NCBI GenBank assembly: GCA_000004985.1
Contig: GG738909.1
Strand: one strand, 5' to 3'
DNA: 64,000 bases
Origin: Naegleria gruberi
Taxonomy: Eukaryota
This document shows, piece after piece, positions 26,096 to 62,998 of the stretch. The notes below the pieces were generated by a model. The model worked only from the letters and a program-made list of their open reading frames with translations, had not been told where the DNA came from and made no database searches. Numbering within the stretch: position 1 is the stretch's first letter; every line of letters begins with the position of its first letter. A program made the translations under genes and the position numbers.

Positions 26096-26267
26096 TTTTT
26101 TTGACTCTTCGATTGCCAGGTCAGACAAGTGACATACACTAATGTAATTGTACGTTTATTACTATTCTTAAACTATTGATGATGAATTGAGAGACTAATG
26201 GATTCCAACTTATCATAACTCATTGATGAACTTGTATTTACAATTTATTTTCGAACTTTTAATTCAT

Positions 26268-41894: not shown

Positions 41895-41912
41895 AAGAAC
41901 CTTAATTGGAGG

Positions 41913-42038
41913 AGGTAGGTAAATGTGAAATACTTTTATAATGAATGTGCTCGTCTCGTGGTGTAATGGTAGCATAGTGGACTTTGAATCCATTGACGGA
42001 GGTTCGATTCCTCCCGAGACGGTAAACGTGGCGAGCGT
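41913..42038 (+). repeat. Direct repeat unit of about 125 bp containing tRNA-Gln (copy 1); near-identical to 46953..47077
   Basis: The flanks gaggtag(g)t(a)aaatgtgaaatacttttataatgaatgtgc (upstream) and ggtaa(a)cgtggcgagc (downstream) are shared with copy 2. Confidence 0.7.
41952..42022 (+). tRNA. tRNA-Gln(UUG): tRNA-Gln (anticodon UUG), copy 1
   Basis: CGTCTCG-TG-GTGT-AATGGTA-GCAT-A-GTGGA-CTTTGAA-TCCAT-TGAC-GGAGG-TTCGATT-CCTCC-CGAGACG-G forms a cloverleaf that matches the eukaryotic tRNA-Gln consensus. A T7 run lies 21 nt downstream. Confidence 0.85.
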
Positions 42039-42152
42039 AATAATTTTTTTATTGGCAATGGGAAAACAAATTCTTAGATATATAAGGGATGATTTTTAAG
42101 ACATCTCAAGAAGTTTCAGATAAATAATAATATAATTTTTATCTTAACTTGG

Positions 42153-45100
42153 CTATTTCTTATTTCTGGTTGATGATCGTGTCTTTCGTGGTTTCTCTTC
42201 TTCATCACTACTAGTATCATCAAAACTTTCTTGTTTCTTTCTTCTTCGAGTGGTAGTTTCCTTTTTTGATGTTTCCTTCTTTTCAAAGAATTTTGCATAC
42301 TGAATCTTGTTATCATCACTCATAAGATCTTGAACAGTTTCACCCTTATTATTTTTTAGAGATAGATCTATTACTTCGAAAATAAAATCACAGCTGCGTG
42401 ATTCTAAAGCATAAAAGGCTGCTGTTTTCAGTTCATTGTCTTGAGCATTTAGTGCATCTTGTCTGTTAACTGTTGAAAGATAATTAATCAAATCTTTCAC
42501 TATGACATCTTTGTCGGGATAGTAATTAGGTTTTTGACATGCAAAGTGAATAAGAGTTTTTCCTGTATCGTCACATTTGGTTGTAATCCAAGGAATCAAA
42601 ATATCTTTGCTCAAATCTGAATTAATGAGAATATTCTTTTTCTTTCTTCCTGTTGTATCTTCAAGTACAATATAAAACAATAGATACATTAATCCTTTCC
42701 AATAGCATATATCTAATAGACTGAAGTGGTGGTGCTTGTGGTTTTGTTTCCTTGGAGTGTTTTGTTTGGACCAAGCTAACTTGGCTTGAAACACAGTTTC
42801 CTCTAAAATGTTTAGCCAACCATTATTGTGGCAACAGTTTGGTGTGTCTTTAATTTTTTCTTCATTGTTTATAGCAATCTTGAAACGTGTACTAAACATC
42901 TTAAACCTCTCCTCAAGAGTTAAATCAGAAAAAAGAGATGCAATTGTTTCTGCCATTTCAATTTGTCCATCCTTATTCCCAAATCTATGTTTTCTTTCAA
43001 CAATTACACCAATTAGTATTTGCAAAATCTCTTCCTTTGTAAAGTCATGTGTATATGAATTATCAGAAATAATAAAATAACAAATGTTAAAATGGTTTGA
43101 TTCAAATGCTAACCGAAAATGTTTGATACTCCATTCTTGTTTTGTGGTAATATACATATTTCCTGCATCAAAAAGTCCTCTTTTTGCCAACTCATCCAAA
43201 ATGGATGTACCATCTTTGAATGGCTCACTATAGAGATTATCTAAAATACTAAGAGAAGATTCATCGGAGAAGATTTGATGAATTTGTTTAAGAATTTCAG
43301 TGGTTTCCATAATTACTGCTAGTTGGACAATATTAAGATTGCCATAAAATTCATCTTCATGTCTGAATGAAGCAATAATTGTGGCAATATCTGTAAAATT
43401 TGGTGGTTGGTACCGAAATGCTGTTAGGGAGTGATCAAGTTTAATACCAAGAATACCTTTTAAATATGAAAAATCTAATGCCTCGGAGGATTTGCTTGAA
43501 ATGACTGAGTAATAGAGTGCATCTGTTTTTTTGTTTGGAATATCAATAATATTTTCCAGTAGTTTTGCAGGGATGAGAGGATTATCTGAGTAGAAGATTT
43601 CATGAATATCAGAATGGGAATTATGTCTATGATGGGAGCACAATGATAATAAATATAAGAGTGGTGAAATGGGAGTACCCTTAACAATACAAATCTTGGT
43701 CAGTGTATCTTCAAAATTATCAAAATATTTGAAGATTGTTCTTAAGTTTTCCAAGTTTGGATTGATAATAGAATTAAATAGTTGCATTAACAATAAAGCT
43801 CTGTTGCGATCAAGATTACCCTTCTCATAATATGTATCAGACAATTCTGAAAGAGTCTCATTTAAATTACATCCTCTAACAAGTAGATTTTCTAGTAAAT
43901 CAAGTGTAGAAATCTTTTCATCACAGCCAAAATAGAAATGTGAATTTGGTTCATCTGAATCGAGTCTTTCTATTACGTTGGTAAGGAAGCTTTTGTTGTT
44001 ATAGCGTTTTGTCAATGTTTCTTCTGAAATTGAGTCAATAAGTGCTGTAACGTCAGTATCTGAGTTAAAGTGACCTAAAAAGTAAAACAAAGGAAGATTT
44101 TCATCTTCATCAATAGCATTAGCATCAACTCCTAACTGGATTAATTTGCTAACTATTCCTCTTGCTTTAGAGCACAAATTGATTAATTTGTGCAGCAAGT
44201 TTTGATTCTTTTCAAATTTCAATTCATTAATTGATAAACCATATTTTGAATACGCTTTTCCAAATGCATCAATTGTGGTTAATAATTCATTATTCTCAAT
44301 ATTTCTTTCAATTTCAATTCTTTTGATTAAACGTTCTAAAGGATTATAACCCTTATTATTTTTCATTTGAAAATATTCTACTGGTACTGCATCAATAAGA
44401 GCTATCAGGAGTGTTAAATATTTAAAAAAAGAATAAACTACTTACATGGAGAACAAGGATGTATATGAATGAGATTATTTCCTGTTGTTGGACAAACAAA
44501 CTTGACATCACAACCAGCCTTAATCAAGGATGAAATAATATTTTCATCAATAGTGTATTCATTATTGCTAGCACCTGTCAAATATGAATGTAAAATGTTT
44601 AAATTCATTTCATCTCCATTCACAATACCTTTTACATCACCTAATGTAATAATAGATGGATTAAGAGTACATAAAAATTCAATAATTTCTGGTTGATGAG
44701 TGGATTTACTTCTCTTAATGAACAATAATAATGGATTGATTTCTTCATCACATACAAGTGGAAAATTAGATTGTTCAAATAATATTTTAAACATTTTAGG
44801 ACTGGAAGTACGAGATAATACTTGAGAAATAATATTCCAATCAATATCCATTGGAGATAGTAGATTTTTGAAAAATTGTTTTTCATACATGTAATCAATG
44901 ATTTCATCATTTTCTATATAAAGAATTTGAGAGTAAGAAGCAAGTAGAGGTGTACCATAGCCTCTTTCCACATGTTTTACATTCTCTTCTAAAATAAAGT
45001 CAATCAATGCTTTGCTATAAAGAGGTCCTGGTAATAATAGAATGTTCAATCTCTTAAGAGAGAAGTGTTGTTCCTTAACAAGGTATTTGAATAAATTAAT

Positions 45101-46084
45101 TACATTTTCAGGAATAAGGCAATTTGTTACTGTTATAAGTGTTGAGTTATCTATATTCATTGCCTTGACAATAGAGCTAAATTGAGTCAAATATTTCTTA
45201 TTAGTAATGGATTGAATATTTGTAATATCTTGTCTGTAAGTGATATTCATTTCTAAAGGATAATTTCTACGAGTATCCACAGTGAGTGGGCCAACATAAA
45301 ATATCTCCATAGTTTGTAATTTGTGAAAAAGAGTCAACATGTTATTTGGTACATTAACTCTGGTACCAAAACCTGGTACAATTAACTTTTCAACATTTGG
45401 GAATAAAAGTGCCAATAATCTAATGCAATCATTATTTGTTCTAATATCACAATATGAATCATACCAAGGGAAATTATATTTCACTAATTCATAATCGATA
45501 TCATTTCTTTGAATCAAGTCAAGTTCCTTCACATTTTGACAAATGACTGTATCAAAATCATCTAACCACTGTTGTGAAATACATCTAATATTTAAAAAGT
45601 ATGGAAATGGAGGAACATATTCAAGTATCATGTGGAGAATATGTCTAGGTAAATAACAATCAAATTTAGGTAAATAGAAAAATCCTTGTTCCTATCCAAT
45701 AAAATCAATTAATATCAAGGCTTTAGAATAAAAACTTACCCAATCCATTCTTTTGACTTTTTTACTTCTAGCATCCAATAAACGTTTAGTATTAAAAATA
45801 CCAATAACAGATACTGATTGCTCACCATCCTCATCAACCATATTATCATCATTTCCCTCTTCTTCAACATTTTGTGAATCATCCCCAACTACTTCTTTAA
45901 TTCTTTCTTCTGTACTCTTTTTTAATTTCTTTTTAGGAGCACGTAGTGGTTGTGGTGATTCATTTACTTTCTCTTCCGATGATGTTACAGAGTCATCAAC
46001 ATCACTCAACACTGAATCGACGGATTCATCTGATGAATAGTCAACATATTTAGTGGCTCGCTTTTTTCCAGTTCTTGGAGGCAT
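42153..46084 (-). CDS. Large F-box protein with LRR-like and ankyrin-like regions and a charged C-terminal tail, 1279 aa. Exons: 45740..46084, 44446..45691 and 42153..44401.
   Basis: Exon 1 (ATG 46084..46082, MPPRTGKKRATKY... acidic S-rich) ends MDW|GTAAGT. A 48-bp intron ends in ATAG. Exon 2 starts EQGFFYLPKFDCYLPRHILHMILEYVPPFPYFLNIRCISQQW (F-box consensus LP..IL..I...L........VCK.W). Its donor is CCA T|GTAAGT, and the 44-bp intron ends in GATAG (an alternative 59-bp acceptor exists). Exon 3 runs to a basic tail. The total of 3840 nt is in frame. Confidence 0.7.
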
Positions 46085-46310
46085 TCTTTTTGTGTGTGAT
46101 GAAAATTTTAGTATACTACCGAAACTAATAAAAAATCTTCAGATTAGGAAGAAAAAGCATTCTTCTAAATTCTTGAAAATGTAACAATTGGAACTTATTC
46201 GTACTCTAACCAATCAATTCACATCATGATATTTTTTAATAACAAGGCCGCAACAATAACTTTTCTTCTCCACTTTGCACAATTTTTGGATGTTTAAGGC
46301 AACTCTCGTA

Positions 46311-46391
46311 GCAGACTTGGCCGAGTGGTTAAGGCGACAGACTTGAAATCTGTTGGGGAAACCTTCGTAGGTTCGAATCCTGCAGTCTGCG
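46311..46391 (+). tRNA. tRNA-Ser(UGA): tRNA-Ser (anticodon UGA), class II with a long variable arm
   Basis: GCAGACT-TG-GCCGAGTGGTTAAGGC...ACAGA-CTTGAAA-TCTGT-variable arm-GGTTCGAATCC...AGTCTGC-G. A T4 run follows. Confidence 0.85.
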
Positions 46392-46448
46392 TCTGAAATT
46401 TTGTTTGGATAGAAAGTATTCAATTTGGTTGGATATCCACTATAAAAA

Positions 46449-46793
46449 ATGTCTCGCGCCAAGTCTAGTGATGTATTTCTTTTTGGTTTAATTTGTGGGT
46501 TTGTTTTATCAGCACCAACATTCCTATTAGCATGTAAATATTTCAAACAATCTCCATTACTAATTTGTCCAGTGACGAGTGCATCTTTGGGTTTTTTCTT
46601 TAGTGCTGCCTATCAATGGGAATGGGGAATCGGATGGCCAACTGGATTGGGATGTACATGTGCAATTACATTGAATAGTTTGGGTATGATGATGTTTACT
46701 TCGGATGATGAATTTGGAGAATGGATTTCTCTGATTGCATATACTGTTGCTAGTGGATTGATTGGAAGTTGGTGTGGAGCTCAATCACAATAA
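46449..46793 (+). CDS. Small multi-pass membrane protein (114 aa) of unknown family
   Basis: ATG in an aaaaaATGtc context, with GC-enriched codon usage and 3-4 hydrophobic helices. Confidence 0.4.
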   Translation: MSRAKSSDVFLFGLICGFVLSAPTFLLACKYFKQSPLLICPVTSASLGFFFSAAYQWEWGIGWPTGLGCTCAITLNSLGMMMFTSDDEFGEWISLIAYTVASGLIGSWCGAQSQ

Positions 46794-46952
46794 TATATTG
46801 AAATATTGTACCTAAAATGAAACGCCATTAATTTTTATTATTTTCCTAGTTTGAAATTATTTGAATCATAACATTGTTTATCATGTATTCCAAGAATTCA
46901 TCATAATTTTAAGCAACAATAGATGACTTTTTGATACAAGCTTAAATGAAAG

Positions 46953-47077
46953 AGGTAGTGAAATGTGAAATACTTTTATAATGAATGTGCTCGTCTCGTG
47001 GTGTAATGGTAGCATAGTGGACTTTGAATCCATTGACGGAGGTTCGATTCCTCCCGAGACGGTAACGTGGCGAGCCA
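46953..47077 (+). repeat. Second copy of the tRNA-Gln-containing direct repeat
   Basis: Matches 41913..42038 with two indel/substitution differences in the flanks. Confidence 0.7.
46992..47062 (+). tRNA. tRNA-Gln(UUG): tRNA-Gln (anticodon UUG), copy 2, identical to copy 1
   Basis: The 71-nt sequence is identical to 41952..42022, offset by 5,040 bp on the same strand. A T7 run lies downstream. Confidence 0.85.
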
Positions 47078-47183
47078 TGAAATTTTTTTGCTGATTGAAC
47101 AATTCCTTTTTGGATTTAAATGATTGGTTTTAAAATAACATTTTTAAGAAGATTTACATATAAAAAAAAGAAAATATTTTTCA

Positions 47184-47714
47184 TTAAACTAAATCCTTAA
47201 TCATAATAATATCACATCTTGAACATAAATGTTTATCCTCACAATCAATAACTCTTGAAAATCCAAATTTTTCATACAATGCAAGTGCCTCCACTAAAAC
47301 AGAAGCAGTTTCCAATTCCATTTGTTTATAATTCATTTCCTTAGCTTTTTCTATGGCTCTTTCCAATAATTTTCTACCTAATCCCTTTCCTCTATATTCC
47401 TCTCTCAAATACATTTTTCTCAATTCACATTTACTTTCGGATAATTTATAAATTCCACAACTGGCAATAATTTTTGATTCAATGGATGAAGAATTGGAAT
47501 TTAATTCAACTATTTCTAAATAACCATTATTTGTAAAGTAATACTTTTCAATATTTAATAAATCATCATCAATATTATCGGAAGGATCTTGAATTTGTTT
47601 AAGACCATATTTAGTAAGAATTTGAGTGACCATTTCTAGAATTTGTGGTCCATCTTGTTCCGTTGCTGCTCTGAATGTGATGAAATTATTATTATCACTA
47701 CTTGGTTTACTCAT
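47184..47714 (-). CDS. GNAT-family N-acetyltransferase
   Basis: ATG 47714..47712 (MSKPSSDNNNF...). Motif A is present as RKMYLREEYRGKGLGRKLLERAIEKAKEM (R/Q-x-x-G-x-G/A), and the acetyl-CoA-binding region ends ...LYEKFGF. Confidence 0.8.
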   Translation of the reverse strand: MSKPSSDNNNFITFRAATEQDGPQILEMVTQILTKYGLKQIQDPSDNIDDDLLNIEKYYFTNNGYLEIVELNSNSSSIESKIIASCGIYKLSESKCELRKMYLREEYRGKGLGRKLLERAIEKAKEMNYKQMELETASVLVEALALYEKFGFSRVIDCEDKHLCSRCDIIMIKDLV

Positions 47715-47792
47715 TTTTTTTATTAAATTAATATAATTTTTATTCAATTAAATATATTATTAGGTGGTGTGAAATCAATTTCAAAATATGAA

Positions 47793-49439
47793 ATGGAAAT
47801 GTTTTGGAAGATTGTAAGAATCTCTTTAAAAAAAATGTCAAACAATGAGGAAGGTGAATCACAACATTTACTTTCTAATAATGATCGGAATGAGAATAAT
47901 CAAGACGAAATACAAACAAATCTTAATTCACCCAATAACGATCTAAATTTTTCACAAACTAATTCTCATAGTACTGATAATCATGAAACTCCTGATTCAG
48001 AAGAAACTCTTTTTATTAATTTAGGAAATAATTCATTCATTGAAAAATATCCATCAAGAGTAAAAGATGAATATAAAAAGATTATTTGCTGTCAATTAAT
48101 TACTTTAATTTCAAATGAGAGAAAATTAACTAATTTCGTATATTTATTAGCTTGTTTATGGATGTTTATTTGTGTATTAATTGGTGGTTCATTATTTTCT
48201 GCTGCTCTGTCAACTGTCGATGAAGCTGATTGTGGAGCTGCTTCAATTATTTATAATGAATGTGGAAAATCATTGAATTGTACTGTTTATGATGGAAAAT
48301 CATTGAATTTGAGAGGATCAATATTTCAATCTAATATGTTTCTAACAGTTTCGAATTTAAATAGAAGTATGAATGATAATATGAAACATGTCATTGAATT
48401 GGCATGTCCTGAATTATGTTACAAAACAGGAATGTGGGATTTTGAAAATTGTGAAAAATTTAACATGAAACTTTCGAATATTTGTTTAAATTACGATTCA
48501 GAATATTGTCTAGTGAGTGAATTGATGGTTGAAGGATTGACTTCACTAATAGAATTGAAGAGATTTGATTTGGGTGTTGTTTATTCATATTTTATTCAAC
48601 CATTTCTTCCACTCATTCTAATCAATATTTTACAAAATGTTGCAGATATTGCTTTAGATTTAATTAGAAATACGAAATCACTTGGAAGAATGTTAACTAT
48701 TTCAGTATTAACACTTTTATCACATTTACTTTATTTAATTCCAATTATTGTAAAGTATGAAAAGACATTTGGAAAGTGGAATATTTTCAATTTCTTTCAA
48801 CCATTGATTTCTTCATTACTTTTACTTTCTTTATTGGAATTTATAATGCCATTCTATAGAGCTCTGTATTCGAATGTTCCTAAAATTACTCTTGGTGAAA
48901 AATTACTTTTATGGATTAAGGAAAAAAAGAATGGAAAGAAGAAATCGAATCAAGAGATGATTACTTTCAAAGAGACAATCTCTGTAAAACTGAGAAAGCA
49001 CTTACACACCATCAAGCAAACTTTATTTAATTCTAAACTTGACATGAGTTATACTCCTCAAAACAATTCGAATCAAGAACAGGTGAATAATGAAGAGACA
49101 GGTGACAACAATTTAGTTAATCAAGAACATGTTTATAGATTGAATGCCATATTTCTACTCATTGGTTATTTAATATTACTTGCTATATTTGAAGGATTGT
49201 GTGGAATTGTCATGGCATTCAAAATAATTTCCATTTCAAGAGGTTATTTTATTTGCATTACAATTGCTTACTTGATCACTTCATTTGCATTCATTACAAT
49301 TTTATGTATGATTAAGAAGGAAAAGAAATGGTTGGGATTCATTATTCAAATCATTATCATGTTTGTCTCGTTTTGTGTTATTGTTGGATCATTCACCTAT
49401 GTTTGGATTGTATTCAATTTTCAACCTTATTCATACTAA
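47793..49439 (+). CDS. Hypothetical polytopic membrane protein with 8 or more predicted TM helices
   Basis: Long ORF (track 47769..49439). The first ATG is at 47793. Multiple hydrophobic helices are present, and Cys-rich loops lie between 48150 and 48480. Confidence 0.45.
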   Translation: MEMFWKIVRISLKKMSNNEEGESQHLLSNNDRNENNQDEIQTNLNSPNNDLNFSQTNSHSTDNHETPDSEETLFINLGNNSFIEKYPSRVKDEYKKIICCQLITLISNERKLTNFVYLLACLWMFICVLIGGSLFSAALSTVDEADCGAASIIYNECGKSLNCTVYDGKSLNLRGSIFQSNMFLTVSNLNRSMNDNMKHVIELACPELCYKTGMWDFENCEKFNMKLSNICLNYDSEYCLVSELMVEGLTSLIELKRFDLGVVYSYFIQPFLPLILINILQNVADIALDLIRNTKSLGRMLTISVLTLLSHLLYLIPIIVKYEKTFGKWNIFNFFQPLISSLLLLSLLEFIMPFYRALYSNVPKITLGEKLLLWIKEKKNGKKKSNQEMITFKETISVKLRKHLHTIKQTLFNSKLDMSYTPQNNSNQEQVNNEETGDNNLVNQEHVYRLNAIFLLIGYLILLAIFEGLCGIVMAFKIISISRGYFICITIAYLITSFAFITILCMIKKEKKWLGFIIQIIIMFVSFCVIVGSFTYVWIVFNFQPYSY

Positions 49440-51674: not shown

Positions 51675-52427
51675 CTACTCTTCTGTAGGGTATGGATTGC
51701 TACTGAATGCCATCTTTCCAATTAGACTATCTGTGATATCAACAAATCCGTGTGGTTTTGAACCTCCTCTATTATTCTTGCTCTTTTCAACTTTGACCTT
51801 CTTTGAGTAGGCTCGTGTAAAGGAACTATCTGTGAATTGGAAACAAATTTCAGCTTGGGATAATTCATTTTGAGATTTACCACCCTTTCTACTTGTTTGT
51901 TCATAGAAAGTTTCAACAGAATTTCTGAAACGTTTGCATGATTGTAGTTTCCCATCGGATGATTCAATATGAGTGGTAATTTGTTGTACGGTTTCATCTC
52001 TGAATTTAATATCAATAATCATGTATATGGTCTTTTCTTCTCTCCAATCGATTTCAATATTGAGAATATTGGTCAGAAGGGTATTTTCTTCAAATCCCTT
52101 TCTATTGGTAATCTGAACCAGATAATTACCAGAATCTCCAGAATTAAATGGTTTGGTTTTTCGTTTTTTAGTATTCTCATTCTTCACTCTCGATATATTA
52201 TTATTATTATTATTATTGGTGCTACTACTTGTACTACTCCTATAATTATCATCATATGAAACTTCTTCTTCTCCATCTGAGTGTTCTCCCTCTGATGATT
52301 CATTAGATGAGTATTCTTCCGATGACTCATAGCTTTCCTCTAATTTCCTCTTTTTGGTGAGTGAAATCAATAAGTTTGCTGCATCCTCTATTGACTTGAT
52401 ATCCATTTCTTGAACTGATAACATCAT
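51675..52427 (-). CDS. Hypothetical acidic/Ser-rich protein, 250 aa
   Basis: ATG 52427..52425. It has an acidic S-rich N-terminal half with a poly-N run; no family recognised. Confidence 0.4.
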   Translation of the reverse strand: MMLSVQEMDIKSIEDAANLLISLTKKRKLEESYESSEEYSSNESSEGEHSDGEEEVSYDDNYRSSTSSSTNNNNNNNISRVKNENTKKRKTKPFNSGDSGNYLVQITNRKGFEENTLLTNILNIEIDWREEKTIYMIIDIKFRDETVQQITTHIESSDGKLQSCKRFRNSVETFYEQTSRKGGKSQNELSQAEICFQFTDSSFTRAYSKKVKVEKSKNNRGGSKPHGFVDITDSLIGKMAFSSNPYPTEE

Positions 52428-53635: not shown

Positions 53636-56498
53636 TTACAACTTAATGCTGCTTTCTGATATTGAAATAGGTTTAGCTAATTTTTGCAAAATTTCTTGGT
53701 GGTGTTTTTTTGTTGATACAACATACATCCCACCAGCTTTCAGCTCGTCTTTTTCACTTAATAAATCCATGGACAATTCATCATAAATACAATCTACATT
53801 ACTAAATTTTTGGCAAAAAGTCAGTATGTCCCCTTTGTTTCTTAGAGGAACTTTAAAGCTTTGTTTAAATTGTTCGCAATCGAATTGTATGGAAATGAAT
53901 GACAACTTGTTCTTGTTGCACGTTTCTTCTGAAAATCTGTCCAAAATGTAGGAATAAATAATTTCAAAATCTGAACCAAAGTGTTTCGCATCTATCTCCA
54001 TTGCCATTGATGGACTAGATTGGAATGCTTCTAGCTTGTGCTTCCAGTGAAAATCAAAGATTTTGGACTGGCTTTTGCTGACACATACCAAACAATCATC
54101 AACTCCCTCTATTAAGAGAGCCAAACTGGCAGCCATTATGTTCCATTCCTCCTCATACATTCTATCTTCTTCTACAATCAAAATAATGAGGTCATAAAAG
54201 GACAGTTTTACTTTCCTTGATGTGTCTGATATAACATCCACTGAACAAAGATCGCCAAGAGGTGATAATTGAATGAAATTTACGAGTACTTCAGCAATAT
54301 CATTTTCTGCATGAATTGCAATAGTGACTTTTTGTTTGGTAAGTTCCTTTCGGATTTCATTAAAGCGGCTTATCATGGTAACAGCATTAGTATTCTTTTC
54401 ATTTGCTTTCAAATGTAATGAATTTTTTTCAATCGTTTCTTCTATCAATCGGTAATTCACAATTTGTTGTTGAAATGGTGACAAATTTTCTTTTGTTAAA
54501 TAGAATAATCTCTTGCAAAGATCAAGATATGATTGGATGGTGTGTGAATGTTTTTGAGAGATGGCTAGATTGATATAACTTGAAGAACCAATTCCAACAC
54601 ACATGGTGGTAAGAATACTCTTTATGCTCAAGCCTTTTCCAATACTTTCGCTTGCACCTCTTAGTGAATTACCTGCCCTTGGTATTGAACTTATTGAGAG
54701 ATACTTATACAAATGGAAAGAACCGTAAGCTGCCACTCCCAATCCAACTAGGCCAATAATTCCATACAGTGCATAGGAAAGCAGTGAGCTGTCTTCCGAG
54801 GAGGATATCTTTTGAATGAAATTATCTATTTTCATCAAAAGTGTACCTTTGTCAATATCAAAATCTTCATCTTGAAGAGTTGTGAAATCAATATCAAGCA
54901 TCTTTTTTAGGTAATCCGAACTTAAGGAACTTTTTGACAATCTGCCAGTGTGAAGATGCTTCACAACCATAAACAATAGGTTAACTGGATCCATACTGGA
55001 AACTACCACTTCTTGTTTACTATTTGGGCTAGGTCTAGCAAAGTATACTGCGAACACAAATGATGTTTTTCCAAACCAATAATTCACCTCAAACTGAATG
55101 CTTATACTGTCCTCAAGTTTTTCGTCTGATTTGATTGTAAAACATATATTATCAGAGTTAATTACTGGCGTTGAAATGGAGATATTGGTTTTAGAGCTGG
55201 TCATATTTAAAATTGTTTTGAAAATACCATTTCTATCTGAAATGTGGATTTTAAATGAACGATCTTTCATATCTGAAACAAAATAAGTAGATTTACCTAA
55301 TTGTTTCTCAATCATCTTGCTGTTTTCATTGATAGAAGCAATTCTTGTAAGGCAAGGTTCGATCTCACAAATATCAAACATCATACTTTTAACTTTTCTA
55401 TGGTTGGGTGTTGATATTACAAAGAGGGAATGAAACGCATTGATGTAACTAATCATTTTACTCCTTTCTAAAAAGGTAGTATCAGTAATCTCACCTGTTG
55501 ATGCACTAATCGCATCTACATTGAAAGAGACAATTTCACTAGTACTGAATGTATAGAATACTCCAATCTTTGAGTATGTTAACCATTCAATTATTTTGGT
55601 TGCTATTGTCGGGAAGTTTGACTTTAGCTTGGGAGTAGCCATTGTAACTAATTTCCAAAATAATCCAGAGAAAGTGAACAAATCATCGTTTACGTAATCT
55701 GAAATCTGTTTAAACGAGTCAACTAGAGTATCAAAAGTGGAAACTCCATCCACCAACAACTTTACAAAATTAACTTGATCTACCTTGATAGGAGATGAGT
55801 GTTTGGTAGGTTTTTCAGAATAGTTTGCTATTTGTTGAAGTGCTAGTAAACAAGGTTGTACCAAATCTTTTTCGTAGAGAAACCATAGAAATTGTTTTGA
55901 GTATTTGGAAATTTCTTCCTTGACCACACTAGATGCAAAAAGTGGAGCTCCAAATCCCACACAATAGACATGTTCTTTCTTTTTAGGCTTTGAGTGGAGC
56001 ACTCTAATAGCAGCCAATCCAGCTAGAGAACCTCCTGAATTAGTTATGTCATAATTTACATTGGAGGAGACAACACTTACCAATTGAATGTCCGCAAAAT
56101 ACTACCTTGTAGCCTTTATCTAAATAATCAATGAAAAAATTCATTTGCATAGCACTTATTTTTGCACTAAAGCCTCTATGGTAAGATCCATTGCTTTCCT
56201 CCAAAGAGGTCGGAAAGCAATTTAAATTTGCCAAAATGTCTGAAACAGTTTCACTACCCTTGAATGCTACGTACAAAATTTTGGGATCTGATGATTCAGC
56301 CATTAGAAAGGGGTGAATATTCATGTCAGTTGATTTAACAAGTTGATCAACTATTACATTGCAACCAGAATAATTGCCAATATGTTCAACAGGGTCTTGT
56401 GAGTAACAACAATCAGAAAGTATGGCACATGTACTGATTATTTCTTTGCTAATATGAATGTCTTTAAGATGCTCATCAATGGTTTGTTGTTTGGACAT
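53636..56498 (-). CDS. Class-3 (fungal-type) lipase-domain protein with a long C-terminal extension, 938 aa. Exons: 56081..56498 and 53636..56034.
   Basis: Exon 1 (ATG 56498..56496) encodes ...ILYVAFKGSETVSDILANLN...YHRGF...KVVFCGHSIG|GTAAGT. A 46-bp intron contains ACTAAT and ends in TTCAG. Exon 2 encodes GSLAGLAAIRV.... Joining the exons yields the GHS(I/L)GGSLAGLA nucleophile elbow. The total of 2817 nt is in frame. Confidence 0.8.
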
Positions 56499-56683: not shown

Positions 56684-59600
56684 ATGAAACCAATCACTTT
56701 GTGGTTGATTTGTGCATTTCTCATTTCTATTGTTCATGGTTCTCTCAAGATTTATAATGGGGAACCAGTAAATGAACACATTCCTTTCATTGTGAGTTTA
56801 AAGATACCAAATGATTTGTGTGGAGGAAGTATTTTGAATGAACGCTTTATTCTTACCGCTGCCCATTGTTTTTGGTTTGCCAAAGAATGTGAAGATATTA
56901 TAGTGGGTGCTGGTTCTAATATTCTGGACGCTCCATTACAACAAAGAAAAACACCTTTTCATAGGGATCAGTATGTGCCACCTACATTCGATGCGAAAGG
57001 AAAATGTTTATTCTCCGATCTAAGAATTGTTGATCTTGGAGCTGGTAATGAATTAATATTTGACGGTACAGTTTCACCAGCTTTATTAGACACTAATGGT
57101 CCCACTGTGGGTGCGAGCGTTACTTTTGCTGGATGGGGTATTAGAAATGAAAACTCTCCTCATTCACAAAAACTGTTCAAAACAACAGAGATTATTCAAG
57201 ATTATAAGACTTGCCCTATTACTGATGAAAATTTTTTGCATTGTACACCAAATGAAAGTAGTGGTCAATTTTGTGCATGGAACGAAAAAAGTATTTCTTG
57301 TCCAGGTGATTCTGGAAGTCCAGTATTTTATGTAGCTAATGACAAGTCCAAAATAGTTACTGGTGTGGTTAGTGCTACCACTGCTTATGAAAAGAAAACA
57401 TGTTTGCAACCTGGCCAGAAGGATTTACACACATCAGTAGCAAAACACACTAATTGGATAATAGAATATACAAATCAAAATACGTTATGTAAGTTTTCCA
57501 AATGTTACTTTGACTATATATATTTAAAAGATGGGTGGGGAAGAATGGATGACCACTTTTTATTCTGGAGAGAAAACCCTTCACAAGACGATTCCTTAAC
57601 CAATCCAAAGATTATTAAGATGAATCCCTCTGAAGGTGTGATGCCAATATTGAGAAAACTGAGACCAACAAAAGGAAAGTTTGCACTTGGTATCTCCGCT
57701 TCAAATAGACTATATTTATGGGGTAGAGGAAACCAATATCAATTAGGAAATGGGAAGAATTCTGACATTCTCCATCCAACTGTTCATAATTTTGTTCTAG
57801 AAAATATTTTAGATGCATGTGGGGGTTATTCACATTCACTAGCCCTTAGTACTGATGGTAAGGTTTATGAATGGGGAACACTCGCCGACGCTATTAAGAA
57901 GACACCAACTGTAGTTGTTTTTCCCAATAATGACAAAATCAAAAGTATATCCTGTGGCCACAGTCACAATCTTGCAGTTTCACAAGATATGAAAAGATTG
58001 TATTTTTGGGGTAAAAATCAATATGGAGAGGGAGGGAATATTAAGGGTGCCTGTGCATCAAATCCTAAAGCATTCATCGAGCGTCCAATCCTTATCTCAA
58101 TCGATAATAATGATTTTACCATTATTAGTATTTGTGCAGGAGATTCAACCAGTTATGAAGTAACATCAAAGGGACATGTTTATTCTTGGGGTTATAATGA
58201 ACAATCTCTTCTAGGAACAGGTATTTCTAGTATTTGTATTGGAATACCAACAAAAATATCTGTGGAAAATGCAGAAAGAATGTATTGTGGTGATCAAATG
58301 TGTTTTGTAAAAGCTGTTAACAATGTGTACGGATGGGGAATTAACAAGTTTAATGAGATAGATGAATCTGGACTTCCAATTATAAGCCCCATCATTACAA
58401 ACATTGAAAGCGCGTCTGATATTACGATTGGAAATGATTTTGTTTTATACAAAATATCTGATAGTTGGTATGGCAAAGGAAATAATTATATGGTATCGGG
58501 TCCTTCTAACTTTAACAAAGGAGTTGATATTGAATGCACAAACTATTATTGCTTTGTTTTTGGTCAATCAGTGAAACTGAGAATTGATGTAACAGTTTGT
58601 TATTTTGTTTCATTAGCATTGAATATCATATTTTTTTGTTTAGGCTTAATATGTATCAAGAAAAGGTCAACGAAAATGAGATTATATACACCTTGTGTTT
58701 TTCCATTTTTAATGTTATGTTTGAGAATTTATCAAATTTATTTCAAGTTCAAATATAATCAAAATTATGGACTGTTTGAGTCTGGTTTAGGTGACTATGA
58801 AATTTTATTGATTTTATTCTCATTATACACTCCTGTAGTATTAAGAAACAGTATTTTAGTCAATTTAACTGAATATCTTGAAAAAGTGGTAAACAGATTT
58901 ACCATTAGGCTTTGGAAAATATTTACCTCAGAGTTGTTATTTATTGGGTTTATATTATTGGCCTTCTTTGGAATGGCATGTCCGATTTTTCTCAACCTCA
59001 AAGATAGACGTATTGTTATTATTGCTATTATAATTTTTTTTTTTATTATGAATATTTTATTGCAATATGTAATACCTTTTATTCAATTTTGTTTGCATAT
59101 TAAGAGGAGAAAATCAATTATCAACTTTTTTGATTTTGATGATCCGCTCCACTTAAGAAAGGAGTATTTGAGTGCCTTTTTGACTGTTGTGGTTAACCTA
59201 TCTTTTGGATTTATTCTGACACCCTTCAGCGTTATCTGGCAGGTTAATGTTATTGTTCTACAACCAATTTTTTTTATTTTCTCAATGGGAGGATTAGCTT
59301 GTGCGATAGAGTTTATTAATAATTTCAGGAAAATATCAAATGCTTCATTGAATGAAGTGCTCATCATTCCACGTTTGTTTGAATTGTTGAAGCAATATGC
59401 AAAAAGAGAGCTGACTTTTGAAAATGTCGTTTTACATGAAAAGATACAGGAAATAAGAGAAATGGTGGACGAAAGAGAAGTTTTTGAAAAGCTAAAAGAG
59501 GTCAATCGAGATTTTTTCTCAACATTTTCAAAATATGAGGTTTCAATCTCGAAAAATTCTAAAACAAATTTGAAGAAATGGTTCGGGGAGATAGGCGTGA

Positions 59601-59791
59601 TAGAGGATTCAAAGATAGTCCAATGGAGCAAAGAGAGTCTTTTAGAAACAGCAGCAACAAGACGAAATTCAAGAGTATTATTTTATTTTACCTCCACATT
59701 CACCTCTATCATTGAAAAGGACATACAAAGCAACTTGGGTGCTACGTTAGAACGATTAAAACACACACGAGAGTTTAAGATGAAAGTTTAA
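56684..59791 (+). CDS. Chimeric receptor: signal peptide + trypsin-like (S1) serine protease + RCC1-like beta-propeller + 7-TM region + C-terminal RGS domain, 1035 aa
   Basis: The ATG at 56684 (aaaaaaATGaaa) gives the signal peptide MKPITLWLICAFLISIVHG. The S1 protease hallmarks are LCGGSILNERFILTAAHCF and CPGDSGSPVF. Four or more RCC1-type repeats follow (YLWGRGNQYQLGNG, VYEWGT, LYFWGKNQYGEGG, VYSWGYNEQSLLGTG, VYGWGINKF). Seven hydrophobic helices lie between about 58590 and 59330. The C-terminal segment LNEVLIIPRLFELLKQYAKRELTFENVVLHEKIQEIRE...FSTFSKYEVSI is RGS-like. The ORF has no stop across 3108 nt. Confidence 0.75.
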   Translation: MKPITLWLICAFLISIVHGSLKIYNGEPVNEHIPFIVSLKIPNDLCGGSILNERFILTAAHCFWFAKECEDIIVGAGSNILDAPLQQRKTPFHRDQYVPPTFDAKGKCLFSDLRIVDLGAGNELIFDGTVSPALLDTNGPTVGASVTFAGWGIRNENSPHSQKLFKTTEIIQDYKTCPITDENFLHCTPNESSGQFCAWNEKSISCPGDSGSPVFYVANDKSKIVTGVVSATTAYEKKTCLQPGQKDLHTSVAKHTNWIIEYTNQNTLCKFSKCYFDYIYLKDGWGRMDDHFLFWRENPSQDDSLTNPKIIKMNPSEGVMPILRKLRPTKGKFALGISASNRLYLWGRGNQYQLGNGKNSDILHPTVHNFVLENILDACGGYSHSLALSTDGKVYEWGTLADAIKKTPTVVVFPNNDKIKSISCGHSHNLAVSQDMKRLYFWGKNQYGEGGNIKGACASNPKAFIERPILISIDNNDFTIISICAGDSTSYEVTSKGHVYSWGYNEQSLLGTGISSICIGIPTKISVENAERMYCGDQMCFVKAVNNVYGWGINKFNEIDESGLPIISPIITNIESASDITIGNDFVLYKISDSWYGKGNNYMVSGPSNFNKGVDIECTNYYCFVFGQSVKLRIDVTVCYFVSLALNIIFFCLGLICIKKRSTKMRLYTPCVFPFLMLCLRIYQIYFKFKYNQNYGLFESGLGDYEILLILFSLYTPVVLRNSILVNLTEYLEKVVNRFTIRLWKIFTSELLFIGFILLAFFGMACPIFLNLKDRRIVIIAIIIFFFIMNILLQYVIPFIQFCLHIKRRKSIINFFDFDDPLHLRKEYLSAFLTVVVNLSFGFILTPFSVIWQVNVIVLQPIFFIFSMGGLACAIEFINNFRKISNASLNEVLIIPRLFELLKQYAKRELTFENVVLHEKIQEIREMVDEREVFEKLKEVNRDFFSTFSKYEVSISKNSKTNLKKWFGEIGVIEDSKIVQWSKESLLETAATRRNSRVLFYFTSTFTSIIEKDIQSNLGATLERLKHTREFKMKV

Positions 59792-59809: not shown

Positions 59810-61247
59810 TTATTTATTTGCCTTTCCTATAATTTCTGTAAACTTTTTAAACATTGTTACAACCTCAATGTCATGATTATATTTCAAGAAGGCTGATGGA
59901 TTCATAGCAATTTCATTAATTGCATTTACAAGTCTTGGATTTTGAAATCCTCTCATTAAATATTCATCTCCAGAAACAAGTTTCATTACATGTGGATTGA
60001 CAAAGTTTGGGACATGTCCAGATGTGGAAGCACTACCATTATTAGAACTGTTACTATTGGTTGGTTTAGAAGAACTATTTGAACTAGTGGAAGATGATGT
60101 TGTAGAAGATTTTTGAGTTGTTTGTGAATAGGTTGTGCTTGATTGTTGTTGTTGGGGTGGAGTACTTTGTTTAGTAGTAGCTGTATTAGAAGTAGTAGTA
60201 GTTGGGTTTTCCTCCTTCTTTTCCACACTTCTGATATCATTAATTTGATCAATTAATTTATCAACCTTATCCATATTAGAAATATCACTATTTAACTGTT
60301 TAAACATTTCCAAATCCTTCTTTGCCAAATCAACCTTCCCAAGAGCTAATAAAGCTTTTCCTCTCAAATTGTAAGCTTTTCCAGCATCTGGATTGAGTTT
60401 AATTGCTTGATCACAATCTCTCCTCACACTCAATGGTTTGTTCATCATTGCTAAACATTCAGCTCTCTTAATAAATGTCATTGCAGATTCTCCATTTGAA
60501 CATTCAATTGCTTTTCCATAATAAATTGCAGCTAATTGATATTCATTCTTTTTGAAAAGGTCATTTCCTTTCTTTGTACATTCATTGGCCACTTTCATAT
60601 CCTTTTCCTTTACATTTGATGTTGAATCTGACATGTTCATTATACTCATATATTTTGAATCACTGTTTGTGAGTACAGTCTCCTTTTCAGGTTCAATTAT
60701 TTTCTCCTTAGTTGCTGTTGGTTCAGAAATGAGAGGAATCTTTGGTGAGTTAGAAGTTTCCTCTACATAACCATTATTAATTGCCGTAGACTCTCTAACA
60801 TTGGTCATTTCCTTCATTACATTCTTTTCCTCAACTGGAGGTTTGTTCTCCTTTTTATCATTAGTGACTTGTTGATCATCAATTTCCAAAATCAGTGATT
60901 TAGTTTTTACTTCCTTAATTAAAAATCCTTCAGGTTCCTCTTCTTCTTGTAGTTCCTCTTTGAATTGTTCTTGTTCCGATGATGAATTAATTATTGTTGA
61001 TGATGAAGGTGATGATACATTATTTACAAAAGGAGTTGAAACGAATTTGGTTGCTCCACAATCATTAATCAGAAAATCCTTAAAGAAAGCTAACTCTTCA
61101 CTATCATCCAAAACTCTAGGATTGTATTTAATATACTATTATTATATTAGTTACGCTTATAATGAAATGAAATATATAAATACAACAAACCTTTACAAAT
61201 TGCTTCAAGGAATCTAGTTGTGAGACTGAAAACTTGATACCCTCCAT
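59810..61247 (-). CDS. Hip/ST13-like TPR co-chaperone with a C-terminal STI1/DP domain, 455 aa. Exons: 61184..61247 and 59810..61113.
   Basis: The long exon lacks an ATG (its M is TTG). An upstream 64-nt exon (ATG 61247..61245) encodes MEGIKFSVSQLDSLKQFVKVC and ends T|GTATTT. A 70-bp intron ends in TAGAG. Joining gives ...FVKVCFLDDSEELAFFKDFL, which resembles the Hip N-terminal dimerisation helix. TPR repeats follow (AIYYGKAIE..., AYNLRGKALLALGKVDLAKKDL), then an S/T/Q-rich linker and a C-terminal NPHVMKLVSGDEYLMRGFQNPRLVNAINEIAMNPSAFLKY segment. The total of 1368 nt is in frame. Confidence 0.75.
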
Positions 61248-61483: not shown

Positions 61484-62998
61484 ATGAGTGATAGTAATAA
61501 TAGTCATCATCATCGTAGTAGTAGTGAAAAGAGATCATACCATCATGATGGTGGTTATAATAATTATGGAAATTCAAGAAGTGGATCATCATCATATAGG
61601 AGACGAAATTACAAGAAACAAAAATATCAAAACTACTCCGATTCTTCTTCTTACACAAATAATAGTACAAATTCATCATCTAATGATGATAATAATGGAT
61701 CATCTAATAACAATACTAATACATCATCATCATCATATTCAACAGGAGGAGGAAACTATTATAATAATGAAAATTATATTTCAAAATATCCATTTGCCAT
61801 ACGGAATGTAACAGATTATATTAATCAACTATCATCTTCAAATACATCATCATCATCAGATAATTTAAATACCACCAATGATAATAATAATAATAATACT
61901 ACCACCTCCTCTTCCACCAATAATAATAATTTAGATAATAATTTAAATAATAATTTAAATAATAATAATTTAGATAATAATAATTTAGATAATAATTTAA
62001 ATAATTCAAGTCAAAATGTAATTAGAAATTATTTTTCCAATTCTAAGAAGTATCGTAAAATTCCCAAAGGTTGGCCACAAGTAACACCCTTATTTGGAGA
62101 ATTAATACCCAATACTAAATTTATTCCACTTAAATGTCCATTAAGTCCACAATATTTTAAATATCCAAATAATTCATCCATTTCATTAATACAAGAACAT
62201 TTTAATACCAAATATGAACAAGATATTGGATTAATAATTGATTTATGTTGTGTTGAATTTTATAAAAAGAATGATTTACCTTTAAATATGAAATATTTAT
62301 CATATTATATGAATATTCATGATTTAAATAAGAATTTAAATGTAAAATTATTTACAGAACAAATGGATACAATTGTAAATGATATTGATTTATATATTTC
62401 TAATAATCCTACTAAATATATTTTAATTCATTGTACACATGGTTTAAATAGAACTGGTTTTGTAATTTGTTATTATTTATTAAAAAAGAAAATTATTGAA
62501 AATGTTGAACAAGCAATTGAAATATTTAAAATTCATAGAATGACACGTACTGGTTTATATAATCCTTTTTTTATTGATTTACTTTTTGAAATGTTTGATC
62601 AAACTAATTCTGAAATGTATCAATTAATGAAATATCCAGATCCAATTCAACATTCACGTAAATCTATTAGAAAGGAATTTTATAAACCATGGTTAAAAAG
62701 AAATAATCATTTAGAATGTTTTAAACATTATCATATTTTAAAATCAATTAATTTATTAAATAAGAATGATAATAAGGATGATAAGGATGATAAGGATAGG
62801 AATGATAATAGAGATGATAATAGAGATGATAATAATGATAATAATGATAATGAAGAAGGAACGAAGAAGAATATTTCAAAAACAGATAATGATGATTCAA
62901 GTACAAGATTATCAGATGATTTAGATTCACTTAACAGTGATAAGGAAGAAGAAGAAGATTTGGAAGAAATTGATGATGAGGAAATGACAAGAAAATAG
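61484..62998 (+). CDS. Cysteine-phosphatase of the RNA 5'-phosphatase class (DUSP11/PIR1 or capping-enzyme triphosphatase-like), with RS-like and low-complexity extensions
   Basis: ATG at 61484. The catalytic P-loop is ILIHCTHGLNRTGFVICYYLL (HCxxGxxRT, as in DUSP11/RNGTT/BVP). The upstream segment KIPKGWPQVTPLFGELIPNTKFIPLKCPL matches that family. The N-terminus is R/S/Y-rich; the C-terminus is a D/K/N-repeat tail. Confidence 0.7.
   Translation: MSDSNNSHHHRSSSEKRSYHHDGGYNNYGNSRSGSSSYRRRNYKKQKYQNYSDSSSYTNNSTNSSSNDDNNGSSNNNTNTSSSSYSTGGGNYYNNENYISKYPFAIRNVTDYINQLSSSNTSSSSDNLNTTNDNNNNNTTTSSSTNNNNLDNNLNNNLNNNNLDNNNLDNNLNNSSQNVIRNYFSNSKKYRKIPKGWPQVTPLFGELIPNTKFIPLKCPLSPQYFKYPNNSSISLIQEHFNTKYEQDIGLIIDLCCVEFYKKNDLPLNMKYLSYYMNIHDLNKNLNVKLFTEQMDTIVNDIDLYISNNPTKYILIHCTHGLNRTGFVICYYLLKKKIIENVEQAIEIFKIHRMTRTGLYNPFFIDLLFEMFDQTNSEMYQLMKYPDPIQHSRKSIRKEFYKPWLKRNNHLECFKHYHILKSINLLNKNDNKDDKDDKDRNDNRDDNRDDNNDNNDNEEGTKKNISKTDNDDSSTRLSDDLDSLNSDKEEEEDLEEIDDEEMTRK

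What the first reader, a model, noticed from the sequence alone, without database searches (positions are those of the whole stretch)
56684..59791. Single-ORF chimera of a secreted trypsin-like protease, RCC1 propeller, 7-TM bundle and RGS domain
One uninterrupted 1035-codon frame encodes four modules in order. The first is a signal peptide followed by an S1 protease domain with an intact His (TAAHC) and Ser (GDSGSP). The second is an RCC1-like repeat propeller. The third is seven hydrophobic helices. The fourth is an RGS-like C-terminus. 7TM-RGS receptors are known, but I know of no description of an extracellular protease/propeller fused to one. The architecture suggests a self-contained sensor in which ligand binding or proteolysis controls a G-alpha GAP. 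It is the best candidate in this window for a novel signalling module.
Basis: partly seen in the sequence, partly recalled or inferred. Interest (0 to 1): 0.85.

Follow-up and report, generated by a model that had tools for sequence, protein, structure and literature searches.

The report
Protease-propeller receptor with internal RGS domain
This Naegleria gruberi gene encodes a membrane receptor of the amoeba's known seven-helix RGS family, but with an unusual outer part (a trypsin-like protease plus a beta-propeller) that the public annotation hides by truncating the protein.

Summary
Window 56684-59791 (+) is a stop-free 1035-codon frame in Naegleria gruberi (gene NAEGRDRAFT_74003). It encodes a signal peptide, an S1 protease with an intact His61/Asp112/Ser210 triad, an RCC1-like propeller, seven hydrophobic helices and a C-terminal RGS domain.

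The public 669-aa model is wrong. Two of its three introns delete helices that are homologous to paralogues, and the third frameshifts into the RGS box. Its first intron (42 nt, GTAAGT…AG, in frame) is probably real, giving a 1021-aa product.

The 7TM-RGS half aligns from TM1 to the C-terminus with N. gruberi NAEGRDRAFT_58957 and an N. lovaniensis protein. Naegleria 7TM-RGS receptors with complex ectodomains that act as GAPs on self-activating Gα are already published, so this is a new ectodomain variant of a known kind. I found no second example.

Caveats: two of the three key Gα-contact residues are changed (Asn128→Ser, Asp163→Ala) only in this protein, and there is no transcript or ortholog evidence.

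Interest is moderate.

The parts
56684..59791 (+). Complete coding frame: 1035 codons plus stop. Corresponds to N. gruberi NAEGRDRAFT_74003 / XP_002671020.1 / D2VXY5, which is mis-modelled as 669 aa.
   Evidence: The ORF is 100% identical to P0001 in the aligned blocks. Frame 0 has no stops against 72 and 94 in the other frames.
56684..56740 (+). Signal peptide, aa 1-19 (MKPITLWLICAFLISIVHG). It is followed by S20-L21-K22, then I23-Y-N-G, a trypsinogen-like activation site (IVGG equivalent).
   Evidence: Hydropathy peak at aa 1-24. Helix at aa 5-17 in the AF2 model. The cleavage and activation sites are inferred from the sequence.
56750..57481 (+). S1 (chymotrypsin-fold) serine protease domain, aa 23-266. 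Catalytic His61 is at 56864-56866, Asp112 at 57017-57019 and Ser210 at 57311-57313. The S1-pocket position 189 equivalent is Ile204.
   Evidence: Pfam Trypsin, E 3.8e-22, 79.6 bits against a 20.6 cut-off. Best PDB hit is VesB at E 1.5e-16, with the triad aligned. AF2 pLDDT is about 90.
57489..57530 (+). Probable 42-nt in-frame, stop-free intron (GTAAGT…AAAAG). It lies in the linker between protease and propeller. Splicing gives …NQNTL-Y-GWGR… and a 1021-aa product.
   Evidence: Sense-strand GTAAGT is depleted in long ORFs (5 seen, about 14 expected). The other 4 occurrences all mark evident donors of roughly 44-49-nt introns. The neighbouring lipase gene has a 46-nt example. Pfam scores do not settle the question.
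57533..58573 (+). RCC1-like beta-propeller, aa 284-630. It carries seven [LV]Y.WG-type blade motifs at aa 285, 346, 397, 442, 502, 551 and 596.
   Evidence: Pfam WD40_RLD E 7e-44, RCC1 E 3e-25, RCC1_2 E 3.6e-18. PDB hits UVR8 and HERC2 at E ~1e-24. AF2 models aa 323-598 at pLDDT ~90, as five 4-stranded blades plus three strands.
58532..58564 (+). Juxtamembrane Cys motif ECTNYYCFVFG (aa 617-627). It resembles SCKSPICLYEP and SCHTSICLFEP, which precede TM1 in the paralogues.
   Evidence: Read from the sequences returned. MAFFT did not align it. Its function is unknown.
58589..59338 (+). Seven-helix transmembrane bundle, aa 636-885. TM1 58589-58660, TM2 58670-58759, TM3 58790-58879, TM4 58898-58993, TM5 59006-59107, TM6 59144-59218, TM7 59237-59338.
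   Evidence: Hydropathy. AF2 helices (low pLDDT of 30-69). Positive-inside counts. Aligns from TM1 to the RGS box with P0035 (N. gruberi NAEGRDRAFT_58957) at E 8.5e-10 and 28% identity.
59339..59788 (+). Cytoplasmic RGS domain, aa 886-1035, with an insert between helices (about aa 967-1000). Glu913/Asn914 (59420-59425) correspond to RGS4 E87/N88. Ser954 (59543-59545) replaces N128. Ala1020 (59741-59743) replaces D163. Arg1024 corresponds to R167.

Best explanation
This is one gene of Naegleria gruberi. It encodes a plasma-membrane (or phagosome-membrane) receptor of the Naegleria 7TM-RGS family.

Shown here:
- A signal peptide and seven transmembrane helices place an N-terminal ectodomain outside the cell or in a lumen. 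The ectodomain is an S1 serine protease with an intact catalytic triad, followed by an RCC1-like propeller.
- The same topology places a C-terminal RGS-fold domain in the cytoplasm.
- The 7TM-RGS half is homologous to other Naegleria 7TM-RGS proteins.
- The public 669-aa gene model is an annotation error that hides the 7TM and RGS parts.

Inferred by analogy with N. fowleri 7TM-RGS proteins and plant AtRGS1:
- The RGS box binds GTP-loaded, self-activating Gα subunits and speeds GTP hydrolysis, holding the pathway off.
- Engagement of the ectodomain changes the receptor's conformation or location, which relieves or alters that GAP action. The trigger could be a ligand or substrate captured by the propeller, or one cleaved or trapped by the protease.

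The ectodomain is a lineage-specific acquisition by domain shuffling. Its RGS box is atypical (Ser954 and Ala1020 at two Gα-contact positions), so GAP strength or Gα selectivity probably differs from the paralogues.
For: ORF integrity and coding signal:
- 0 stops in 1035 codons. Codon-usage score is positive in frame 0 and strongly negative in the other frames, including +19.9 against -98 and -88 across reference 'intron 3'.
- The antisense ORFs score negative.

Domains:
- Trypsin and RCC1 pass Pfam cut-offs.
- The triad is aligned to VesB.

Topology:
- Seven helices.
- Positive-inside rule, and 20 Cys outside against 0 inside.

Family:
- Aligns from TM1 to the C-terminus with NAEGRDRAFT_58957 and N. 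lovaniensis C9374_009793.
- Shared FDDP loop and RGS motifs.

The reference model's introns 2 and 3 use non-consensus donors (GTTTGT, GTATTT). They delete TM1-2 and TM3-7, then frameshift into the RGS box.

Functional analogy:
- N. fowleri 7TM-RGS domains are selective GAPs for self-activating Gα (PMC9283941).
- The AtRGS1 de-repression model is described in PMC8584482.
Against: - No transcript, proteomic or ortholog evidence exists. The protein is a singleton.
- The RGS score is below Pfam's gathering threshold.
- RGS4 Asn128 and Asp163 are two of the three critical Gα contacts (PMC8252600). They are Ser and Ala here, while all 8 relatives keep Asn and Asp.
- The 7TM bundle is modelled at low confidence (pLDDT 30-69). 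It has no detectable similarity to solved GPCRs.
- Nothing tested here links the ectodomain state to RGS activity.
Confidence: 0.6

Rival explanations
1. Membrane-tethered ecto-protease with a degenerate RGS box. On this reading the 7TM-RGS half is only an anchor or scaffold inherited from a receptor paralogue. The protein's job is extracellular or phagosomal proteolysis, and it has no GAP output.
For: The RGS domain is the most divergent in its family. It scores 20.7 bits against 28-44 bits for several relatives. It uniquely loses the Asn128 and Asp163 equivalents, which are listed as critical contacts in PMC8252600. The protease has an intact triad and typical disulfide cysteines.
Against: The RGS fold is modelled with high confidence and matches RGS4 at 1.6 Å. 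The E87, N88, E126 and R167 equivalents are kept. A Ser at the Asn128 position occurs naturally in active RGS proteins, as the title of Posner et al. 1999 (cited in PMC7572916) indicates; the details are my own knowledge. A 150-residue tail kept stop-free argues for constraint.
Confidence: 0.22
2. The ectodomain acts as a binding module only. On this reading the protease domain is catalytically silent or a substrate trap, and it senses ligands together with the propeller, much as lectin or EGF ectodomains do in other Naegleria 7TM-RGS proteins.
For: Other family members carry non-enzymatic ectodomains (PMC9283941). The S1 pocket is unusual, with Ile at position 189 (alignment, my reading). No activity data exist.
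Against: His61, Asp112, Ser210, the GDSG oxyanion motif, the Asp194 equivalent and a K|IYNG activation site are all present. Pseudoproteases usually lose at least one of these features (general knowledge).
Confidence: 0.12
3. The public gene model is right. On this reading the gene makes a 669-aa secreted protease-propeller protein, and the downstream open frame is intronic or non-coding.
For: It is the deposited annotation, XP_002671020.1. Its first intron looks genuine.
Against: Its introns 2 and 3 are in-frame, stop-free sequence with coding codon usage. They use non-consensus donors. They remove segments that align to TM helices of paralogues. The model ends in 12 frameshifted codons inside a domain that folds as RGS. 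P(313 stop-free codons by chance) is 7e-12.
Confidence: 0.03
4. A young, lineage-specific fusion of little or no function. On this reading it is a recent domain-shuffling product in a genome with hundreds of RGS genes. It is possibly unexpressed and on its way to decay.
For: No ortholog or paralogue with this ectodomain was found in other Naegleria proteomes or in metagenomes. The RGS contact residues are relaxed.
Against: There are no stops or frameshifts in 3.1 kb of AT-rich DNA. Catalytic residues, disulfide cysteines and topology signals are all intact.
Confidence: 0.08

Closest known systems
Naegleria 7TM-RGS proteins (N. fowleri Nf 7TM RGS1-4, 28 genes; N. gruberi NAEGRDRAFT_58957 / D2VQQ5; N. 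lovaniensis C9374_009793)
   Same: Seven helices followed by a C-terminal RGS box. The target aligns from TM1 to the C-terminus at 28% identity, E 8.5e-10. It shares the FDDP loop before TM6, the ExxEN, YEV and TxxR RGS motifs, and a juxtamembrane Cys motif. A variable, often complex ectodomain is typical of the family (PMC9283941).
   Different: The ectodomain here is an S1 protease plus an RCC1 propeller. This combination is not reported for the family, whose described ectodomains are EGF, lectin, GPS, or an unannotated domain in P0035/P0038. The RGS box carries Ser954 and Ala1020 where all relatives have Asn and Asp.
Arabidopsis AtRGS1 (plant 7TM-RGS receptor GAP)
   Same: Same overall logic: a 7TM domain with a cytoplasmic RGS that restrains a self-activating Gα, with de-repression on a stimulus (PMC8584482; PMC9283941).
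   Different: AtRGS1 has no large ectodomain (my knowledge). Sequence relatedness of the 7TM parts was not tested here.
Adhesion GPCRs and protease-activated receptors
   Same: A large modular ectodomain on a seven-helix receptor, with proteolysis as part of the signalling logic.
   Different: No GPS/GAIN, 7tm_1 or 7tm_2 match. Here the protease is carried by the receptor itself. The cytoplasmic output is an RGS (GAP) domain rather than GEF activity.
Type II transmembrane serine proteases (matriptase / TMPRSS / enteropeptidase)
   Same: An S1 protease displayed on the cell surface by a membrane anchor, with a zymogen-type activation site.
   Different: Those proteins have an N-terminal single-pass anchor and a C-terminal protease. 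This one has an N-terminal protease, then a propeller, seven helices and an RGS domain (general knowledge).
Secreted trypsin-RCC1 proteins of bacterial type (metagenome protein P0018)
   Same: Colinear signal peptide, then trypsin, then RCC1 repeats. One BLASTP alignment spans both domains (E 2e-15, 23% identity). The best solved trypsin relative is bacterial VesB.
   Different: No membrane helices and no RGS domain. Identity is too low to show common descent or gene transfer.

Membership tests
7TM-RGS receptor GAPs (Naegleria family / AtRGS1 type) | Seven transmembrane helices N-terminal to the RGS box, with the C-terminus in the cytoplasm | tested here: met
   Seven hydropathy peaks and seven AF2 helices. 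K+R counts of 5/4/6 inside against 1/3/0 outside. No dedicated TM predictor was available, and the bundle has low pLDDT.
7TM-RGS receptor GAPs (Naegleria family / AtRGS1 type) | C-terminal RGS-box domain | tested here: met
7TM-RGS receptor GAPs (Naegleria family / AtRGS1 type) | Sequence homology of the 7TM-RGS unit to recognised family members | tested here: met
   phmmer against 1.84 billion representatives finds NAEGRDRAFT_58957 at E 8.5e-10 over query residues 24-350, spanning TM1 to RGS. The N. lovaniensis homologue is also found.
7TM-RGS receptor GAPs (Naegleria family / AtRGS1 type) | Conserved Gα-contact residues of the RGS box (RGS4 Asn88, Asn128, Asp163) | tested here: inconclusive
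   Asn88 is kept as Asn914. Asn128 is Ser954. Asp163 is Ala1020. All 8 relatives keep Asn and Asp. The contacts are defined in PMC8252600.
7TM-RGS receptor GAPs (Naegleria family / AtRGS1 type) | GAP activity on a (self-activating) Gα subunit | not testable with these tools
   This needs a biochemical assay of the kind used in PMC9283941.
Peptidase family S1 (chymotrypsin fold) | Domain match above the curated threshold | tested here: met
   Pfam Trypsin at 79.6 bits against 20.6. 438 PDB chains matched the full-length protein at E ≤ 0.01, a total that includes RCC1-family as well as S1 chains. AF2 pLDDT is about 90.
Peptidase family S1 (chymotrypsin fold) | Catalytic triad His/Asp/Ser plus the GDSG oxyanion motif | tested here: met
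   His61 (TAAHC), Asp112 (aligned to VesB D-I-A-I-V) and Ser210 (GDSGSP).
Peptidase family S1 (chymotrypsin fold) | Proteolytic activity | not testable with these tools
   Needs an enzyme assay.
RCC1-like domain (seven-bladed propeller) | RCC1 repeat matches above threshold | tested here: met
   WD40_RLD at 151 bits against 150. RCC1 at 89 against 21.7. RCC1_2 at 65 against 22.
RCC1-like domain (seven-bladed propeller) | Seven blades closing a propeller | tested here: inconclusive
   Seven WG-type motifs are present. AF2 models only five full blades plus three strands with confidence, and aa 265-320 and 598-640 have low pLDDT.
Adhesion GPCRs | GAIN/GPS autoproteolytic domain and a class-B 7TM domain | tested here: not met
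   No GPS, GAIN or 7tm_2 hit at E ≤ 1 in the Pfam scan of the whole protein.

The most novel reading that the evidence does not exclude
The protein is a receptor that carries its own protease. On this reading the tethered S1 domain cleaves an extracellular or phagosomal substrate captured by the propeller, or cleaves the receptor's own stalk. That event switches the cytoplasmic RGS domain's action on self-activating Gα. It would be a cis-acting, GAP-output counterpart of protease-activated and adhesion GPCRs. The protease-propeller cassette may have come from a bacterial secreted protein.
Probability: 0.12. Interest if true: 0.8.

Novelty: new variant of a known kind. Interest (0 to 1): 0.45.

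Why it matters
How the outside signal controls the RGS domain is still unknown for 7TM-RGS proteins (PMC9283941 says so for Naegleria). A family member whose ectodomain is an enzyme with a predictable chemistry offers a handle that lectin or EGF ectodomains do not. Protease inhibitors, an S210A mutant or defined substrates could be used to ask whether the ectodomain state changes GAP output.

It also shows that the RCC1 propeller, which is almost always intracellular in eukaryotes (my knowledge), can be deployed extracellularly.

There is a practical point too. The public model XP_002671020.1 / D2VXY5 is truncated, so the Trypsin-RCC1-7TM-RGS architecture cannot be seen in a domain-architecture survey built on that model. 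Counts of 7TM-RGS genes in N. gruberi may be underestimates for the same reason.

On the other side, N. gruberi has 229 RGS proteins and extensive domain shuffling, so one more odd combination is not very surprising.

Tried and rejected
- Word-indexed protein search with the family alignment A2 returned only two fragments. It was swamped by hydrophobic words.
- Two metagenome scans found no relative. One used the full protein and one used alignment A4.
- The encoding-contig look-up for the reference protein found nothing. The contig for P0044 is cut at the gene. L002 only showed another member of the P0035 subfamily, with an unannotated ectodomain and an intron after FDDPFFIR.
- The RCC1-only search gave generic or bacterial RCC1 proteins at 27-29% identity. 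None had trypsin or RGS, and none was a Naegleria paralogue.
- Pfam scoring of spliced against unspliced linker did not settle intron 1. WD40_RLD scored 157.5 bits unspliced and 142.3 spliced, while RCC1_2 went slightly the other way.
- The AFDB Foldseek library was unavailable. The low-confidence 7TM model matched no GPCR in the PDB, so the class of the 7TM bundle is unresolved.
- Anantharaman et al. 2011 (PMC3396428) is not held, so I could not check whether it lists this architecture.
- The antisense ORFs at 57164-57409 and 59083-59631 were rejected as coding, with codon scores of -21.9 and -20.0 bits.
- Horizontal transfer of the ectodomain from bacteria was considered. It was left as a weak hypothesis because identities are only 23-29%.
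Full report
**What is there**

The window is Naegleria gruberi DNA. The ORF at 56684-59791 (+) is 100% identical, in every aligned block, to the NCBI 'predicted protein' XP_002671020.1 (NAEGRDRAFT_74003, UniProt D2VXY5). The frame runs 1035 codons from the first ATG to a TAA/TGA-class stop. Frame 0 has no stop, while the other two forward frames have 72 and 94. At this composition, the chance of 1035 stop-free codons is 1.4e-37.

A codon-usage log-odds score was trained on 15 other long ORFs of the window. It is positive in frame 0 for the main segments and strongly negative in most shifted-frame comparisons. It is near zero in frame 0 for the two short reference-intron segments, where it cannot discriminate. 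The two antisense ORFs inside the gene score -20 and -22 bits.

The gene is tightly packed. A divergent class-3 lipase gene lies 185 nt upstream. The stop codon of a convergent TPR gene lies 18 nt downstream. There is therefore no room for further exons.

**Gene structure and the public model**

The deposited 669-aa model differs from the open frame in three places.

Its 'intron 2' (153 nt, donor GTTTGT) and 'intron 3' (about 600 nt, donor GTATTT) are both stop-free in frame. Intron 2 deletes TM1-2. Intron 3 deletes TM3-7 and rejoins inside the RGS box in the wrong frame, ending after 12 codons (RNKRNGGRKRSF*). The deleted segments align to the transmembrane helices of paralogues. The 'intron 3' segment has coding codon usage (+19.9 bits against -98 and -88). 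These two introns are annotation errors.

Its 'intron 1' is different. It is 42 nt long (57489-57530), runs from GTAAGT to AAAAG, and is in frame and stop-free. In the 38 kb of long ORFs in this window, sense-strand GTAAGT occurs only 5 times against about 14 expected. The other four occurrences all sit at ORF ends, where they are evident donors of roughly 44-49-nt introns. One of these is the 46-nt intron in the neighbouring lipase gene, whose removal restores the GHSIGGSLAG nucleophile elbow.

Splicing of intron 1 gives …NQNTL-Y-GWGR…, which matches the [LV]Y.WG signature of the other blades. Pfam scores do not discriminate between the two forms. I therefore think the mature protein is 1021 aa. 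This changes only a linker that AlphaFold leaves disordered (aa 265-320).

**The modules**

1. Signal peptide, aa 1-19. It is followed by SLK|IYNG, a trypsinogen-type activation site (sequence reading).

2. S1 protease, aa 23-266.
   - Pfam Trypsin scores E 3.8e-22.
   - His61 (TAAHC), Asp112 and Ser210 (GDSGSP) align to the triad of Vibrio VesB, the best solved relative at E 1.5e-16.
   - Model pLDDT is about 90.
   - The position-189 equivalent is Ile, so specificity is not classically tryptic (my reading of the alignment).

3. RCC1-like propeller, aa 284 to about 630.
   - WD40_RLD scores E 7e-44 and RCC1 scores E 3e-25.
   - UVR8 and HERC2 hit at E ~1e-24.
   - There are seven WG-type blade motifs.
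   - Five full blades plus three strands are modelled at pLDDT ~90.

4. Seven hydrophobic helices, aa 636-885.
   - K+R counts are 5/4/6 in loops 1/3/5 against 1/3/0 in loops 2/4/6.
   - There are 20 cysteines in the ectodomain against none in the 150-residue tail.
   - This fits an N-out, C-in topology. The bundle itself is modelled poorly (pLDDT 30-69).

5. RGS domain, aa 886-1035.
- Pfam RGS reaches only 20.7 bits against a cut-off of 23.9.
   - However, phmmer finds RGS10 at E 3.5e-4.
   - A profile of the protein with its seven relatives hits 35 PDB sequences, all RGS, with a best E of 8.5e-11.
   - The top 50 Foldseek hits of the model are all RGS domains, although none reaches E ≤ 1e-3.
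   - In the full-length model this domain has pLDDT of about 90.

**Family**

An exhaustive HMMER search with aa 620-1035 against 1.84 billion representatives found only eight proteins. The informative ones are N. gruberi NAEGRDRAFT_58957 ('RGS domain-containing protein'; E 8.5e-10, 28% identity, aligned from TM1 into the RGS box) and N. lovaniensis C9374_009793. The rest are environmental fragments. Several relatives pass the Pfam RGS cut-off, at 28.7-43.7 bits.

Naegleria 7TM-RGS proteins are a described family.
- N. fowleri has 28, many with EGF, lectin or GPS-bearing ectodomains. Their isolated RGS domains are selective GAPs for Gα subunits, including 'self-activating' ones (PMC9283941).
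- N. gruberi has 229 RGS proteins (PMC3971589) and about 44 Gα subunits (PMC8584482).

The cytoplasmic and membrane halves are therefore ordinary for this genus.

**What is unusual**

The ectodomain is unusual. No protein in the searches combines trypsin or RCC1 with RGS. Two metagenome scans found nothing. No paper in the held library mentions the gene or the combination.

The RCC1 domain's nearest relatives are only 27-29% identical. Many are metagenomic RCC1 proteins, and some of these carry bacterial-type sorting domains. One bacterial-looking protein has the same colinear trypsin-then-RCC1 order. A bacterial origin of the cassette is possible but unproven.

The RGS box is also atypical. 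In an alignment with RGS4, the equivalents of E87, N88, E126 and R167 are kept. Asn128, Asn88 and Asp163 are the three critical Gα contacts (PMC8252600). Ser at the 128 position occurs in natural RGS proteins (the Posner et al. 1999 title, cited). The loss of Asp163 has no such precedent that I can cite.

**Mechanism**

Shown: the topology, the folds, the catalytic residues and the family relationship.

Inferred: by analogy with AtRGS1 and the N. fowleri proteins, the tail acts as a GAP that restrains self-activating Gα, and ectodomain engagement modulates this. I put about 0.9 on the architecture and about 0.45 on the receptor-GAP function, which gives 0.6 overall.

Main rival: a 7TM-anchored ecto- or phagosomal protease whose RGS box no longer acts on Gα (0.22).

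**Verdict**

This is a new ectodomain variant of a known receptor kind, hidden by a faulty gene model. It is a singleton with no expression evidence. Interest is 0.45.

Noticed in passing
window 53636-56498 (-), intron about 56035-56080: The upstream neighbour is a class-3 lipase gene split into two ORFs by a 46-nt GTAAGT…TTCAG intron. Splicing restores the nucleophile elbow GHSIGGSLAG.
   Followed up: yes
window-wide; sites 3768(+), 10160(+), 20732(-), 23854(-), 44445(-), 45739(-), 56080(-): GTAAGT on the sense strand is strongly depleted inside long ORFs (5 seen, about 14 expected). Where it does occur, it almost always marks a very short (about 44-49 nt) intron. This is a useful local rule for correcting gene models in this genome.
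   Followed up: partly
window 23837-26128 (-): A 763-aa ORF with a HAMP domain (Pfam E 2.2e-6). HAMP is a typically prokaryotic signalling module. This is probably part of one of Naegleria's many cyclase or histidine-kinase-type receptors.
   Followed up: no
window 38410-49439 and 51675-52427: Six long ORFs of 250-737 aa (38410-40029, 40197-41894, 42153-44366, 44438-45631, 47769-49439, 51675-52427) have no Pfam match at E ≤ 1e-4.
   Followed up: no
window 58532-58564; P0035, P0038, L002:2-1216: A short juxtamembrane motif, C-x4-C-[LF]-[YVF], sits just before TM1. It reads ECTNYYCFVFG here and SCKSPICLYEP, SCHTSICLFEP and CISSICLYEP in relatives. It might be a conserved stalk element of this 7TM-RGS subfamily.
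   Followed up: partly
L002 (ENA ERZ27315067 k141_2133011), 2-1895: An environmental relative of the NAEGRDRAFT_58957 subfamily is called as two genes. The break falls right after the FDDPFFIR loop, which suggests a conserved intron there and the same kind of truncated gene calls in metagenome data.
   Followed up: partly
window 61484-62998 (+) and 59810-61111 (-): The downstream neighbours are a dual-specificity phosphatase with long Asn/Ser-rich low-complexity tracts and a TPR protein with a Ser/Thr/Gln-rich tail. The TPR gene's stop lies only 18 nt from the target gene's stop.
   Followed up: no
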